Of a DNA stretch of 64,000 nucleotides, positions 51,001 to 63,000 are shown one piece after another; the stretch's first letter is position 1; each line of letters opens with the position of its first letter. This stretch comes from Raja brachyura (taxonomy: Eukaryota). The DNA lies in assembly GCA_963514005.1 (NCBI GenBank), contig OY740789.1, positions 13,082,001-13,146,000 on the forward strand. The letters are read 5' to 3'. A program made the position numbers.

Positions 51001-54000
51001 AGCAGGAGGGAAGGGTAGAATTGACAAGGGAGTTGCAGAGGGAACGGTCTTTGCGGAAGGCAGACGGGGGGGGGGGGGGGGAAGATGGGAAGATGTTGCG
51101 AGTGGTGGGGGTCACATTGGAGGTGGCGAAACTGGCGGAGGACTATGTGTTGTATGTGCCGGCTGGTGGGGTGAAAGGTGAGGACCAGGGGGACTCTGCC
51201 CTTGTTGCGAGTGGGGGAATGGGGAGAGAGGGCAGTGTTGCGGGGTATGGGGTGCAAGCCTCATCTATAGTGGGGGAGGGGAATCCACGTTCTCTGAAGA
51301 ATTAGGACATTTGTGATGACCTGGTGTGGAACACCTCATCCTGGGAGCAGATGCGGTGTAGACGGAGGAATTGGGAATAGGGGATGGAGTCCTTACAGGA
51401 AGCAGGGTGGGAGGAAGAGTAGTCCAGGTAGCTGTGGGAGTCAGTTGGTTGAATATTCAGTTGGTTGAATATAGTCCAACTTGTGCTCACAGACTTGTGG
51501 TCTCCTCAAATATATCCTCATTCATTTGTCTTTGCTACCATGAAAACAGAAAATCTGGGAGTCAAGCAGCATCTGTGAAGAAAAGCGGAGTTCACTTCTC
51601 TCTGCAGATGCCATTTGTTTGTTGAGTTTCTTCAGCATTTTCTGTTTATATTTCAGGTTTGTTGCTGTTTTTTGGCTTTTATGTTGTCTTGCAAGTCTTG
51701 CCCGCAGAGGACAATCATTTACAACTTCCGAGCCCTAGGATTGCCATATTGCAATGTTTACTGCCCATAAGGAAAGACAACCATACTCAAAGACCCCATC
51801 TGCTTTATCTTCTGAGGAACAGGCACAGTGGTCACACGTTGCCAAAAACCTATTCCAAAATATCAGAGACTACACTGAAGCACCGTTACTCCTTTGAGAG
51901 ATCACTCTGATCATCACCTGCAATGATGTCCTACGCAGCCTGTCCCCACTGGATTCCCTAGGAGCACTGTTGTATACCCCTCACATCACTGTAGCATACT
52001 GCCCAGTAGCTGTAAGTGTTGTAGGCACTGTAGTGTGTCCCCTCAAATGCTAGATTCAGAGACCACATTTGCTGGGTTGATTGTCAACGGCGACGATAAT
52101 CACAACACGTTAACTAACGGCAACACTACCAGTTTCAGTGTAGCGATACACAGGAAAGCCTTGCAAACAAAACCTTGTTCTGTGAATCTTGTAAATGAGG
52201 CTCTCAATTTTTATAAGAAAGAACTGCTGATGCTGTGTTTAAATCGAAGATAGACACCAGATGATGGAGTAACTCAGCGGGACCGGCAGCATCTCTGGAG
52301 AGAAGGAATGGGCGATGTTTCTGGACGAGACCCATCTTCAGACTGAAGAAGGGTCTCGACCCGAAACTTCACCCATTCATTCTCTCTGGACATGCTGCCG
52401 GCCCCGCTGAGTTACTCTCAATTTGTGCTATTCTCAATTTTTATAGGTCTTCTATTAGCAATATTAGAGCAACTCACAAATCTCCTTTACTACCATTAAT
52501 AGATTGCAATGAAACCTAGCTCAGGGTATCCATTGACAGTGCTATACCACAATTAGAGTAAAGTGCTTGGACTTTTAACAAGTAAAGTCAAACCGAAATT
52601 ACAGCAACTTCCTCCAGAAATACAGGGAACATCTTAAAATGCAGTGAAAGGACAATATTTGCATTCATGAAATGAACATAAAATCAGTTTCTTCATCATG
52701 CTTGATTGACAATCCCTTTAATAATGCTAAAAAACAGCTTAAGTGCTCAAATTTAGAAATCTACGGAAGGAATTCAAATTGCACTCACCAATGACGACAA
52801 TCATCAGGTCTCTTCTGGCAGTGCAAAATGTGATGCTAGAGGCAAAAAACACTGTTCCCACTGTGGGAAAAAAGAGTCAGAATTAAGGACACAAACTTCC
52901 CTCAACTGGGGGTAAATGGAAAAGTGTGAATAGTTTTTTTCAAAATAAATTACAAAATGTTCACATACCCATGGACCACTTTTCAATTCTGTGCCTTTGG
53001 GTCAAGTTATGAAAAAACCTAACCGTGCTCCCACTACACGTGTCCCCTCGAGGACCTTCCTTCCAAACTTGCGGTAATCAATGTAGAAGTAGCCCCAGTC
53101 GGTGAGTTTCCTGTGACTGGTCGCCAAACTGGAGCAGATCAGTTATGTTGCTGATGATTCCTAGCGATTTCAAACTGTATGGGGACAAGGAATTGGAAAG
53201 CTGATATATGACTGGTGTCAATTAAAAATGCAACCCATCTCAAACACTAATGCATTTATTAGAATGCTGAGGCTACAACAGCTTTGGCAGAGAGCAGGGA
53301 ATTAGCATACACTTTCTTAAGGTATTGTTAACTTCAACTTTAAACAAGGAAAAAAATGAATAATAAACTTTACAAGAACTATTATGTAGCATTTGGCAGA
53401 AGTGAATTGCAAAGCCAAATAAGGTGAATAAATCCATGATCTAAGCTTATGTTACGTATAGTTTTATTAAGTCTTAAGACATTGATCAGCTGCCTAGTAG
53501 AGTATTTGGAACTATGTTACACTATTCAAGAAGCAACTGGATTATGTTGTAGTGAGTAATGTGATAGCCAAACAAGAAAAAATGGTGAAGATAAGAAACC
53601 TTATCTTGCCAGTTGCTACCATGGCGGAAGAAGAAAAGTTAACTACACTGCAGAGTAATTATAGCTACATTGTCAACCTAGTAAAATTAATCCCCTCAGG
53701 TATTAAAGCAATGGGATGGTTCTGTTGTCATTTTGGGACAGATTAGGGATTGAGGGAAAGTTGACATTTGGAATAAAATTCTATCAAAATATTAGCCTAC
53801 GGATTGGGGAGATGGGGATTTAGGGTGTGGGAGGTGGTGAAATGGCAAATGAGTTTGGCCTTTTTGTCCGCTCCCTTTCTGCAAAGTATTGCCAGCATTA
53901 TTTGTTATAATTTTACAACTTAATGCATTTTTTTTTACCAGAATGCCCATTTCATCTAAGAATGTGACATATTCCCAGACGAGTCATTTTAAATTTTACC

Positions 54001-60000: not shown

Positions 60001-63000
60001 ACTTGCAATCAAGCAAAGCCTAAATATGGATACAACAATAATCTAATTTTTTTATGAATTAAACATGCACCATGCTAAAAATTAACTGTATCAGGATAAG
60101 CTACTTGCAAATTCTGTCTTGCAATCAAATCAGTTTTCAAATTTAGCAAGCAGAAGTCAGGTGCATCTCTGCATGAGGGAAACAAAAAATATTGAGGTAT
60201 ATCCACACATTTTCCATAATGGATTCCTGCCAGTTGGATAAAATAGACACAGCCGGTTGCACATGAAAATTTGGCTGCCTGCCCTGTTCTCTTTGTTGCA
60301 TCAACGGTGACCTTGGAAAAATGCCACTGTGGCAATGCATACACCCCAAATAAAAAAATAAGGCACACTGCTCACTTTCCATCGACTGACCGAAAGTACG
60401 ATGTCAAAATGTTTTTAAAATGTGACTTTGATCTTAGTTTTCAAATCCGGAGTTTAAAGATTAGCGTTCAAAACACCTGATAAACACCTCACGGGATTGA
60501 CACATTTCACTCCTTAGCACATTCTAGTCATGGTGATTTTCCACTGCAACACATTTGCATTTAGATATTGGATGCCCAATAGCTTAAATTTGTCTGGGGT
60601 GCAACAGCCACAGTAATAAAATGTAACTGACATAAAAATCATTGAACTACATAAAGTATTGGAAAACTGGAGACATTTGAAAACTGATTTATAACTTTCA
60701 TTTTATTTAGTATTTTAGTAAAGTAAAAAGATCACAAGGAGATACACAAAAGTATTTAGACAAAATAAACTCAAAACCCTGTTAGAAATGCTAATATCAG
60801 TAGTGCACAGCATTTTTTCAAGAGGTAGTTAAAAGACCAGTAAAGATAAACCAGAAATGTAAACTGGCCAGATTATAAAGCTCATATCTGGGCAGCAAAA
60901 CGTATTGGCCTAAAGAAAGACACAAAGTTCTGGAGTGACTCAACGGGTCAGGAAGCATCTGTGGAGAAAATCGATTGGTGACACTTTTTTAGACCCCACA
61001 GGTTGTGCTGAAGGAATTTAGGAACCATAAATATGGAATACATCTCAAAAGATATTCTTCACCATCACAGTCCATCTCTGTATTAGAACCTAATCTCAAC
61101 TATCTCCCTCCCCACCACCACCACCCAATTTTGATTTGACCACTTTGAGTAAACACATTCAATGCACGTAAAAAAATTCTGGAGTATTAATCTTTATCTT
61201 AGTCCACACATTTAGTTTGATATTCTGTCCTTTCTATCATTGTTATTACCCGCTGCCAACTGTTATTACCCCAATATGAGAATTAGATACAATTCTAGAA
61301 AGAGTATATTTGGAACAAACCTCTCACTTCTGGGTAAGACACAGAATGCTGGAGTAACTCAGCAGGACAGGCAGCATCTCTGGAGAGAAGGAATGGATGA
61401 CATTTCCGGTCGAGACCCTTCTTCAGACTGACGTCAAGGAGGAGGGAGATAGATGGATAAAGAAATGTGAAGGTATGAAAACAATGCAAAGGGAATGGAG
61501 ATCAAGGAAAATGCAAAATAGATTATTGTTAGCTGGGAGAAGGTACCAACAAAGCAAACAGAGATAAAATGGAGTCGGAGACAGTAAGACTGGCCGGAGA
61601 ATTGGGAAGGGATGGAGAGAGAAGGAAAGCAAGAGTTTCTTGAAGTGACTCTCTCACTTCTGAGTATTGCAACTCAAGAAGACGACAGTGACCTGGGGAG
61701 AGGACTAATGGAAATTCATCATAATGATAAACGGATAAATTGCAAGGACACGCTGCATAATTGCGGCTTATGTTTGTTGACTATCAAAGGTGAGAGTGTG
61801 ATCAAACTGAGATGACACAAAGGACCTGAAAGTTAGAGGTGATTGTTTAAGGGTGATATTCAGTAACATTTCTTCATCCGAATGGTAGTGAAAATGTGGC
61901 ATTCACCCTCCAAAGCTGCTGAGACTAGGTTAGTTAAAAAAATATCAAAACTAAGATGTGTACTAACCTATTTGGTAAGGGGATTCAAGAGGCATAAAAA
62001 AAGGCAAACTGAGTCGAGGAACAAATCAGCCCCGAATAGAAGAAACATCTGCAGCTGCATGCCCTAACTCTGGTCCTCCGTTTCGAACACTGTCCCGGAT
62101 GCCCAACAATGTTGAGAATTGGTTTAAAACTGATGTATTATGATGACAGCACCAAAGCAGCTGTATATTTTTTTCAAACAGTTGGCAATAGGAAACCCTA
62201 CAAAACCTTAGTTCGAAACAGCAAACATATTACGGAAAAGAGTAAATCAGTGTGCAGATTTTGATCCAATGCTCACAAGGCCAGCTATTCTCAATGTGTA
62301 GTTCAGCAGGAGGGATTTAGGCTTCCTACACATGTGAGAGACATGTACCTAACTTGGAACGTGTTCACAGACATAGTTCCATGTTAAATAACTATAAATA
62401 CTGTAAATAAATGCACATCAACAGTATTATGAGCTACAATGCTCCGTTTTCAGGTTTTTAAAAAAAACGTCTTCATCTACCCAAGAAAGTCATCCAAAAT
62501 GTTATAACTGGACTAATTATCTCAATTATAAAGTCAGTTTGGGGTATATCAACTACACAAGGATGCTGTTATGTGTACATGAAGCTCAGTATAAATAAAT
62601 CTCTCGTTAAGTCAAACCTCTCTGAACACTGAAAGGCTCAAAGTTAACATTTCAGGATAAATGAAAGGTCATTAACCTGGCAATTAACTAAGTTTCTCTC
62701 TCCACAGATGCCACCCTGATCTGGTGATTGTCTCCAGGATTGTATGTATTATTTTAGATTGCTAGCTTATGTAGATTGTTCTTATTCATGTATCACTGAA
62801 AACTGCCATTGTGTCTTACCTTCAAATAAGACCTTGTATTCAAGAAGGTTGTTAGCACTGAGCCTTTCTTTAATCTGTTTCTTCCATCTCAGTTCCCAGG
62901 CCAGCACCCAAAAACAAAAGGAGATCAGGAATGTCAAGATACATGTCCTCTGACCACTGCAAATCAGCATGTATAATGAATCACAAGTTTCAGAATTCAG

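What the first reader, a model, noticed from the sequence alone, without database searches (positions are those of the whole stretch)
52969..62970. AREL1 N-terminal extension (hydrophobic plus SAM-like) apparently decaying into 5'UTR
Seen in the sequence: three exons upstream of the MIVVIG start have good splice sites and phases that chain into continuous junction peptides, LFE(G|AT)VHSLEE, YHH(GT|T)LKSLG and KWSM(G|TG)GTVFF...RDLMIVVIG. The 56209-56358 exon has a frameshift with an immediate TAA, and the 52969-53174 exon has a stop and two frame changes. The 18 downstream exons are undamaged. From memory, unverified: teleost Arel1 has a long N-terminal extension with WEIRWKK, WLCSQSLEHYY and WGYYYEDY motifs, while mammalian AREL1 starts at MFYVIG. 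Inference: the extension is ancestral to jawed vertebrates and has been lost independently here, converging on the short mammalian form.
Basis: partly seen in the sequence, partly recalled or inferred. Interest (0 to 1): 0.75.

Follow-up and report, generated by a model that had tools for sequence, protein, structure and literature searches.

The report
Decayed N-terminal exons of skate AREL1
In this skate genome, three exons that encode a membrane-anchored N-terminal add-on of the ubiquitin ligase AREL1 in sharks and ray-finned fishes are broken by deletions and stop codons, so the gene can only make a short, mammal-like protein.

Summary
The window carries an AREL1 gene on the minus strand (62970..2858). 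It has 18 intact coding exons, 98% identical in protein to Leucoraja erinacea AREL1. Upstream lie three exons with consensus splice sites, homologous to the ~195-residue N-terminal extension of long-form AREL1. That extension is a hydrophobic helix plus two weakly SAM-like units. It occurs in catshark, epaulette shark, horn shark, chimaera, bichirs, sturgeon, gar, bowfin and teleosts. In the window it is not translatable:
- the conserved Met-Asp start is gone;
- exon 2 has a net 22-nt deletion and a TAA;

Two exon-3 frameshifts are also implied by the independently annotated Leucoraja model, so these two are inherited, not assembly errors. Relic exons differ from Leucoraja about seven times more often than downstream exons. 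None of 33 named tetrapod entries has the extension, so loss in skates is independent of loss in tetrapods.

Three refinements apply:
- The loss is shared by at least two skates.
- A batoid-specific Met at the end of exon 3 may be the real start.
- The SAM assignment is borderline.

This is an ordinary kind of event, well documented here.

The parts
62820..62970 (-). Relic exon 1 of long-form AREL1. The ORF is still open for 50 codons plus 1 nt (MLICSGQRTCILTFLISFCFWVLAWELRWKKQIKERLSANNLLEYKVLFE) and includes a 17-residue hydrophobic helix. The conserved Met-Asp start is replaced by Gln-Arg, and a new ATG at 62970 lies six codons upstream. There is a 4-codon in-frame deletion, and the otherwise invariant Trp of EEW[LI] is Arg. 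The 5' end of the exon and the transcription start are unknown.
   Evidence: (E 4e-11 to 1e-8 to shark long forms)
56209..56358 (-). Relic exon 2 (150 nt; about 172 nt inferred in catshark). There is a net 22-nt deletion near 56338, so the incoming frame reads VHSLEEC and hits TAA at 56335-56333. The homologous frame continues one base off for 42 codons (LIFENSVDDSVIQEIKAVQRRLLKKLTLQKWLCAQGLEDYHH).
   Evidence: (E 9e-9)
52969..53174 (-). Relic exon 3 (206 nt; about 215 nt inferred in catshark). It has one extra codon, then frameshifting deletions of about 2 nt (near 53110), 8 nt (near 53052) and 2 nt (near 53024), and TAG at 53036-53034 where relatives have Glu/Asp. The WGYFY motif survives only out of frame. 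The last full codon is ATG (52972-52970), a batoid-specific Met in frame with the main ORF.
52789..52860 (-). Exon 4, a 72-nt in-frame cassette (VGTVFFASSITFCTARRDLMIVVIG). It is intact and holds the conserved short-form start ATG at 52804-52802. The same exon is skipped in the chimaera, sturgeon and saury X2 models.
2858..49990 (-). Remaining 17 intact AREL1 coding exons (TM anchor, filamin repeat, HECT domain) ending in ...EGFGML and TAA at 2860-2858. The catalytic Cys codon is split TG|C between 4170-4169 and 2960.
   Evidence: (direct Pfam hits to Filamin and HECT)

Best explanation
The window holds the AREL1 gene of a skate, close to but not identical with Leucoraja erinacea. Jawed vertebrates ancestrally made a long AREL1 whose first three coding exons add about 175 residues. 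These are a hydrophobic helix followed by two weakly SAM-like helical units. A fourth, 72-nt exon follows; it carries a second hydrophobic stretch and the Met used by the short form. In the skate lineage the first three exons stopped being protein-coding. They accumulated a lost start codon, frameshifting deletions and stop codons, some inherited by both skates and some private to each. Their splice sites remain consensus, and NCBI models of two other batoids still splice exons 2-3-4 or 3-4. The exons therefore most likely persist as 5'UTR exons. Translation of the ligase must start at the conserved internal Met (MIVVIG, 52804) or at the batoid-specific Met 21 codons upstream (52972). Either start gives a short, ER-anchor-first protein like that of tetrapods, which lost the extension independently. 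Shown here: homology, the lesions, their partial sharing with Leucoraja, faster divergence of the relic exons, and the taxonomic distribution of the long form. Inferred: continued transcription, which start codon is used, and the function and topology of the lost module.
For: Exon 1 peptide hits only long-form shark AREL1 (3 of 6 candidates, E 4e-11 to 1e-8). tblastn of catshark X2 maps exons 1-3 at E 4e-15, 9e-9 and 6e-10 and all downstream exons. Frame-aware alignments to five intact long forms place the same lesions. By exon-length arithmetic, the window's 150 and 206 nt compare with 172 and 215 nt counted from P0002, which matches -22 and +3-2-8-2. Leucoraja X2 (P0020) reads window frame f0 across the 53110 site and f2 across the 53052 site, so it shares those two frameshifts. 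It also has its own indels near 53104 and 56232, and it lacks the window's TAG and the 53024 deletion. Window versus Leucoraja identity is 78 of 91 aligned columns in relic exons 2+3 against 803 of 820 downstream (Fisher p=1.2e-6). A long form with more than 200 residues before the YDYVRGNYLDP anchor is found in 32 of 42 named ray-finned entries, in catshark, epaulette shark and chimaera, and in 0 of 33 tetrapod entries. Pfam finds no SAM match in the Leucoraja N-terminus or in 3 window relic pieces, whereas 13 of 14 proteins carrying intact extension sequence give one. The Met at KWSM is present in the window, Leucoraja and Hemitrygon and in none of 24 other sequences.
Against: No reads or transcripts of this species could be examined, so sequence errors at individual sites cannot be formally excluded, and use as 5'UTR is not shown. 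The sharing of lesions is deduced from a predicted Leucoraja protein, not from its DNA. Substitution evidence alone is weak. The window differs at 9 of 33 columns invariant in 20 long forms, but leave-one-out controls give 5 of 38 (catshark), 7 of 40 (epaulette shark) and 3 of 36 (chimaera). Exon 1 keeps an open frame and 73% identity to catshark. The homologous frame of exon 2 is stop-free for 42 codons. So decay is shallow, or part of the region is still constrained for another reason. There is no CpG island near exon 1, and five upstream ATGs in exons 1-2 would burden a leader. The main transcription start may therefore lie elsewhere.
Confidence: 0.85

Rival explanations
1. The breaks are assembly or consensus errors, and the long isoform is intact in the living animal.
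For: Single-base indels are the commonest assembly error. Reads could not be checked. One site lies at a GGGG run (near 53052).
Against: The lesions include net deletions of about 22 and 8 nt, a substitution stop (TAG), a lost start codon and radical changes at invariant residues. Two frameshifts are implied in an independently assembled and annotated species. All 18 downstream exons in the same 60 kb are clean.
Confidence: 0.03
2. The exons still encode protein through a new reading. Either a skate-specific N-terminal extension exists, as in the 933-residue Leucoraja X2 model, or an alternative acceptor rescues the frame.
For: Leucoraja X2 is annotated with a 113-residue extension that mixes ancestral and off-frame segments. 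In both skates the exon-3 indels sum to a multiple of three. In the window, an AG 17 nt inside exon 2 would put exon 1 in frame with the 42-codon homologous stretch (my reading).
Against: In the window every frame of exon 3 has a stop. Skipping exon 3 shifts the frame, because 206 nt is not a multiple of 3. The Leucoraja start ATG is ACG in the window. The Leucoraja extension has no Pfam match, and half of it is off-frame text, as expected of a longest-ORF artefact. Only the last 21 codons before MIVVIG can be added, from ATG 52972.
Confidence: 0.07
3. Relic exon 1 is retained for function. Its ORF is 50 codons plus the junction codon and seven exon-2 codons, ending at TAA 56335. It would act as a membrane-targeted upstream ORF or micropeptide that regulates AREL1 translation, rather than being neutral debris.
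For: Exon 1 is the only relic exon without a frameshift or stop. It kept a replacement ATG in frame after the ancestral start was lost, and it kept the hydrophobic helix and WELRWK.
Against: It has a 4-codon deletion and a Trp-to-Arg change at an invariant site. The Kozak context is poor (TACATGC). No second batoid sequence of exon 1 was available to test constraint. An open frame of 50 codons is not unusual in recently decayed sequence.
Confidence: 0.1

Closest known systems
Long-form AREL1 of sharks, chimaera and ray-finned fishes (e.g. Scyliorhinus canicula isoform X2, 977 aa; Lepisosteus oculatus, 1022 aa)
   Same: Exon structure, intron phases and order of motifs match (hydrophobic helix, WExRWK, EW[LI], WLC.Q.LE.Y, LKSLG, WGYxY, LVH.L...EKWS). 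The downstream TM anchor, filamin repeat and HECT domain also match.
   Different: In the window the start codon is lost and exons 2 and 3 are out of frame with stops, so the extension cannot be made.
Short-form AREL1 of tetrapods (about 823 aa; human protein described as an ER-resident single-pass protein with the TM at the very N-terminus; PMC12864862, passages read)
   Same: The only usable starts give a protein that begins at or just before the TM anchor (MIVVIGGIAVSIVAFFFTVKF versus MFY[VI]IGG...), followed by the filamin and HECT domains.
   Different: The short state arose separately. The skate still carries recognisable relic exons 1-3 and possibly 21 extra N-terminal residues. Tetrapod genomic DNA was not examined here. 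Archosaur models keep only a trace of the exon-4 leader.
Leucoraja erinacea AREL1 isoform X2 (933 aa, NCBI model)
   Same: It is 98% identical over the 820 downstream residues. It uses the same exon 2-3-4 junctions and implies the same two exon-3 frameshifts.
   Different: It has its own extra indels that happen to leave a long ORF, starting at an ATG that is ACG in the window. It lacks the window's TAG and the 53024 deletion.
SAM domains (Pfam SAM_1, SAM_2, SAM_EPH; tandem SAM of Caskin-2)
   Same: Two consecutive units of about 60 residues, each opening with an EW[LI]...L..Y..F pattern, are all-helical in the models. The weak top matches are SAM domains in Pfam, Foldseek, the ESM Atlas and PDB phmmer.
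   Different: Only 2 of 14 proteins reach the Pfam cut-off. The structure models are of low confidence, and no fold match is significant.

Membership tests
AREL1 orthologue (HECT-type E3 ligase) | C-terminal HECT domain with catalytic Cys | tested here: met
   Of five HECT-region exon translations tested, three exceed the Pfam HECT cut-off (40.9, 63.1 and 33.7 bits), one is below it (20.4) and one has no hit. The catalytic Cys codon TG|C is intact across the last intron.
AREL1 orthologue (HECT-type E3 ligase) | Filamin/ABP280 repeat and N-terminal TM anchor upstream of HECT; best matches named AREL1 | tested here: met
   The Filamin match is 30.1 bits against a cut-off of 26.9. A hydrophobic segment lies at the start of exon 5. 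Of the 120 rows listed, most named ones are AREL1/KIAA0317 entries (some carry only generic or hypothetical names), and the best is Leucoraja AREL1 at 97%. 803 of 820 residues are identical.
Long-form AREL1 (N-terminal extension present and coding) | Conserved Met-Asp start immediately before the first hydrophobic helix | tested here: not met
   The window has Gln-Arg at the aligned columns; all 20 full long forms have Met-Asp. A different ATG lies six codons upstream.
Long-form AREL1 (N-terminal extension present and coding) | One open reading frame through exons 1-4 | tested here: not met
   TAA at 56335-56333 follows a net -22 nt. Exon 3 has three frameshifts and TAG at 53036-53034, and no frame of exon 3 is open.
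Long-form AREL1 (N-terminal extension present and coding) | Sequence homology of the three upstream exons to the extension | tested here: met
   E = 4e-15, 9e-9 and 6e-10 in the window. Pieces align to the 24-sequence alignment.
SAM domain (for the ancestral extension, not the window) | Pfam SAM family match above the curated cut-off | tested here: inconclusive
   13 of 14 proteins carrying intact extension sequence (12 of the 13 intact ones scanned plus the flagged Hemiscyllium none; see calls) match SAM_1, SAM_2 or SAM_EPH at E<=1 or <=0.1. Only 2 of 14 reach the cut-off (Cololabis 25.8 and Amia 23.3, against 23). Matches fall in two regions, about residues 28-65 and 89-146.
SAM domain (for the ancestral extension, not the window) | Five-helix SAM fold | tested here: inconclusive
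   AlphaFold2 models have mean pLDDT 57.3 and 59.4. Foldseek against the PDB gives 0 matches at E<=0.001, and the top 5 of 9 weak matches are SAM domains (E 2.8-6.6).
5'UTR exons with upstream ORFs | Exons are transcribed and spliced to the coding exons but not translated into the main product | not testable with these tools
   Only indirect evidence exists: consensus splice sites and NCBI models of Leucoraja and Hemitrygon that include exons 2-4 or the end of exon 3. No RNA data were available.

The most novel reading that the evidence does not exclude
Batoids did not simply lose the module; they rebuilt the 5' end. A new start codon was fixed at the last codon of relic exon 3. It occurs in 3 of 3 batoid sequences and none of 24 others. 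With it the ligase keeps the second hydrophobic segment and gains a two-helix hairpin anchor. Relic exon 1 survives as a 58-codon membrane-targeted upstream ORF that throttles AREL1 translation. On this reading the 'decay' is a conversion of a protein module into a regulatory leader. The LOW QUALITY epaulette-shark model, which has Trp-to-Arg in WGY and a 3-residue gap, hints that the same process is starting in a shark.
Probability: 0.12. Interest if true: 0.55.

Novelty: new member of a known kind. Interest (0 to 1): 0.35.

Why it matters
All functional work on AREL1 found here concerns the short mammalian protein, an ER-anchored ligase at ER-lysosome contacts (PMC12864862, passages read). 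This locus draws attention to a deeply conserved, unstudied N-terminal module: a hydrophobic helix plus two possibly SAM-like units. Most jawed fishes carry it, and it has been discarded at least twice, in tetrapods and in skates. Three full-text searches (listings only) found no paper describing it. Repeated loss says the module is dispensable for the core ligase function, and it gives natural 'knock-outs' for asking what it adds. For annotation it is a caution. The 933-residue Leucoraja 'isoform X2' is probably a longest-ORF artefact over decayed exons, and skate AREL1 should start at MVG.../MIVVIG.

Tried and rejected
- **The listing of cluster members:** the tool answered that it is switched off, so I took species names instead.
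- **Leave-one-out count at invariant columns:** the window scores 9 of 33, against 3-7 of 36-40 for the other cartilaginous fishes. This does not discriminate, so I did not use it as main evidence.
- **Structure route to the SAM question:** two AlphaFold2 jobs gave low confidence. Foldseek gave nothing significant. ESM Atlas scores were 0.75-0.79, below the 0.9 level the tool treats as more than a lead. PDB phmmer gave only E>=0.34, including the Caskin-2 tandem SAM at 1.2.
- **Rfam and tandem repeats:** nothing relevant to the finding.
- **CpG scan:** no island near exon 1 or exon 4. The GC-rich patches are retroelement copies.
- **Splicing rescue, reasoned:** an internal AG could rescue exon 2, but nothing rescues exon 3, and skipping exon 3 breaks the frame.
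- **Collections not usable:** the only sequence collection open for scans holds bacteria and archaea, so no other vertebrate genome could be searched.
- **Joined model:** a joined (spliced) model was neither built nor searched; all searches were exon by exon.

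
Full report
**What is in the sequence.** On the minus strand the window carries one large gene. Reading it directly gives four 5' exons.

- Exon 1 runs 62970-62820. It starts with ATG, has an open frame of 50 codons plus one base, and ends with donor GAAG|gtaaga.
- Exon 2 runs 56358-56209 (150 nt).
- Exon 3 runs 53174-52969 (206 nt).
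- Exon 4 runs 52860-52789 (72 nt).

All have polypyrimidine-AG acceptors and GT donors. Exon 2 entered in phase reads D-VHSLEEC and then TAA (56335-56333). One base off, a stop-free stretch of 42 codons ends in WLCAQGLEDYHH. Exon 3 has stops in all three frames. Exon 4 reads VGTVFFASSITFCTARRDLMIVVIG.

**Identity of the gene.** I searched exon by exon.
- tblastn with named AREL1 proteins maps 18 coding exons from exon 4 to the stop at 2860-2858.
- Against Leucoraja erinacea AREL1 isoform X2, all 820 residues from the MIVVIG Met onward are covered, with 803 identical and no stop.
- One apparent mismatch is the catalytic Cys. Its codon is split TG|C by the last intron and is intact.
- Single-exon translations hit Pfam Filamin and HECT directly.
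- The donor is therefore a skate, very close to L. erinacea but not that species. It is not human.

**Are the upstream exons homologous to anything?** Yes.
- The exon 1 peptide, searched against longer proteins, found 3 proteins among 6 candidates. These are a Scyliorhinus torazame fragment, S. canicula AREL1 isoform X2 (977 aa) and Hemiscyllium ocellatum AREL1 (1018 aa, flagged LOW QUALITY), with E from 4e-11 to 1e-8.
- The first 200 residues of the catshark protein added Callorhinchus milii (995 aa).
- A full HMMER scan with the S. torazame fragment gave 15 proteins at E<=0.001. They include a Heterodontus fragment, a 982-aa protein later named as Etheostoma, and ten short fragments carrying the exon-1 peptide.
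- tblastn of the catshark protein on the window gives E=4e-15 (exon 1), 9e-9 (exon 2) and 6e-10 (exons 3+4).

**Distribution of the long form.** Searching exon 5 against longer proteins listed 120 of 152 hits. I took only named entries from that list.
- 32 of 42 ray-finned entries have more than 200 residues before the YDYVRGNYLDP anchor. They include bichir, reedfish, sturgeon, gar, bowfin, bonytongues, eel and many teleosts. 26 of the 42 also pass a strict two-motif test. The other 10 are short models.
- Catshark, epaulette shark and chimaera are long.
- 0 of 33 tetrapod entries are long; 26 of these have exactly 46 residues before the anchor.
- The 24-sequence alignment shows an invariant Met-Asp start, a 17-residue hydrophobic helix, WExRWK, EW[LI], WLCxQxLEHYY, LKxLG, WGYxY and LVHxL...EKWS.
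The extension predates the split of cartilaginous and bony vertebrates.

**The lesions.** Frame-aware alignment to five intact long forms and fragment alignment give the map below.

| Exon | Lesion |
|---|---|
| 1 | The Met-Asp start aligns with Gln-Arg. A different ATG lies six codons upstream. Four codons are deleted. The invariant Trp of EEW[LI] is Arg. |
| 2 | 14 nt stand where sharks have 12 codons, a net loss of 22 nt that shifts the frame into TAA. |
| 3 | One added codon. A 2-nt deficit after ...DQSQ (near 53110). An 8-nt deficit replacing three codons before RGH (near 53052). TAG (53036-53034) where relatives have Glu/Asp. A 2-nt deficit before VRFFHNL (near 53024). |

The arithmetic closes. 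The window's 150 and 206 nt compare with 172 and 215 nt counted from the catshark protein, assuming conserved intron positions.

**Not an assembly artefact: the Leucoraja model.** The 933-aa Leucoraja X2 protein starts MPAVKEVNTAEVTVCTG. That is the window's off-frame of exon 2 (15 of 16 identical; the Leucoraja ATG is ACG here).
- It then slips into the ancestral frame (LEHYHH) and uses the same exon 2-3 junction.
- It reads LKSLG...DESQET in the window's f0 straight across the 53110 site.
- It then reads LTGATSMLITTSLEGRSSRGHVEREH in the window's f2 straight across the 53052 site.
- It then reads NVRLVHNL...KWSM and continues into exon 4.

So Leucoraja shares the 53110 and 53052 frameshifts. 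It has two indels of its own, near 53104 and 56232. It lacks the window's TAG and the 53024 deletion. This is the expected pattern for a region that became non-coding before the two skates split and has drifted since. It rests on a predicted protein, not on Leucoraja DNA.

The stingray Hemitrygon X2 model begins MVGAVFFASS, at the Met that is the last codon of exon 3. This is consistent with loss in rays too, but it is not proof.

**Rate.** Window and Leucoraja agree at 78 of 91 aligned columns in relic exons 2+3, whatever the frame. They agree at 803 of 820 columns downstream. The Fisher test gives odds ratio 7.9 and p=1.2e-6.

The count at invariant columns is less telling. The window scores 9 of 33, against 5 of 38, 7 of 40 and 3 of 36 for the three other cartilaginous fishes.

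**What the gene can still make.** The conserved Met of the short form (ATG 52804-52802, context CTGATGA) is intact. An in-frame ATG at 52972-52970 (TCCATGG) ends exon 3. That residue is Met in the window, Leucoraja and Hemitrygon, and Val/Ala/Ile/Leu/Thr/Phe in the 24 others. No ATG or open frame lies further upstream in that frame of exon 3. The product therefore begins MIVVIGG... or MVGTVFFASSITFCTARRDLMIVVIGG....

If transcripts start at exon 1, five upstream ATGs precede these starts. One is the exon-1 ORF, which by phase arithmetic ends at the exon-2 TAA after 58 codons. No CpG island marks a promoter near exon 1 or exon 4. The start site is unknown.

**What the lost module is.**
- Hydropathy confirms a helix in exon 1 and a second hydrophobic stretch in exon 4 just before the known TM anchor.
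- Pfam gives SAM-family matches in 13 of 14 proteins carrying intact extension sequence. They fall in two regions (about residues 28-65 and 89-146). Only 2 of 14 exceed the cut-off.
- AlphaFold2 models of two natural fragments, each with a 21-row alignment, are all-helical but of low confidence (pLDDT 57.3 and 59.4).
- Foldseek finds nothing at E<=0.001, and its five best weak hits are SAM domains.
- The ESM Atlas (scores up to 0.79) and PDB phmmer (Caskin-2 at E=1.2) give only leads.
- 'SAM-like, perhaps a tandem' is therefore a reasonable label, not a demonstrated membership.
- Human AREL1 is described as an ER single-pass protein with its TM at the very N-terminus and the rest cytosolic (PMC12864862, passages read). 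The topology of the long form is unknown.

**Literature.** Three full-text searches returned no paper about a long fish AREL1 or its extension: AREL1 with N-terminal/transmembrane/isoform, AREL1 with 'SAM domain', and arel1 with zebrafish. I saw listings only, except the passages of PMC12864862. Supplements were not consulted.

**Verdict.** It needs the refinements that the decay is shared by at least two skates, that a batoid-specific Met may extend the short form by 21 residues, and that the SAM label is tentative. The event itself, 5' coding exons degenerating into leader exons while an internal start takes over, is a known kind of change. Its interest lies in pointing to an unstudied, ancient AREL1 module that has been lost at least twice.

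**Left open.** Reads and transcripts of this species were not available. Neither was genomic DNA of other batoids or of lungfish, coelacanth and amphibians.

Noticed in passing
window 32433-35791 (+), and 50489-51181: A GC-rich (0.56-0.70), CpG-island-like patch in the intron between the exons at 41489 and 28712 is a retroelement on the opposite strand to AREL1. It has a 499-codon open frame with reverse-transcriptase (27.8 bits, cut-off 29.6) and GIY-YIG (20.0, cut-off 22.6) matches. That combination is what I recall for Penelope-like elements. A related fragment in the other orientation explains the GC-rich patch at 50300-51200 in the intron after exon 4.
   Followed up: partly
P0004 (Callorhinchus), P0031 (Acipenser), P0119 (Cololabis X2) versus window 52789-52860: Exon 4 is an in-frame 72-nt cassette. 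Three of 24 aligned long forms skip exactly these 24 residues (two more are suggested by length). Long AREL1 thus probably comes with or without the second hydrophobic stretch and the short-form Met, which would change membrane topology.
   Followed up: partly
P0073 (Alligator sinensis X7), P0070 (Callipepla): Two archosaur models read AAVI[FL]GCVSHRRDL in frame just upstream of MFYIIGG. This resembles AGALIFGCTVALCFLIRDL of fish exon 4. Tetrapods may therefore keep a trace of the extension in their leader.
   Followed up: no
P0003 (Hemiscyllium ocellatum, LOW QUALITY PROTEIN): The epaulette-shark extension has Arg for the Trp of WGY (Trp in the other 23 aligned sequences that cover this column), a 3-residue gap after DYH, and 7 of 40 private changes at otherwise invariant columns. 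Together with the NCBI low-quality flag, this could mean the extension is also eroding in this shark, or that the assembly is poor there.
   Followed up: no
P0020 (Leucoraja erinacea AREL1 isoform X2): Part of the first ~92 residues of this 933-aa database model is translated from off-frames of decayed exons. It looks like a longest-ORF artefact rather than a real isoform.
   Followed up: yes
P0005 (4736 aa, representative library): A very long unnamed protein matched the query only over residues 31-57 yet scored E=1e-19. I did not look at it; it may be a repeat or a composition effect.
   Followed up: no
window 8912-9514, 15334-16485 (+): These are further retroelement remnants inside AREL1 introns. 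One open frame matches the reverse-transcriptase C-terminal half (36.7 bits). Another matches the short ALKBH8_N model (24.1 bits), probably a LINE-derived segment.
   Followed up: partly
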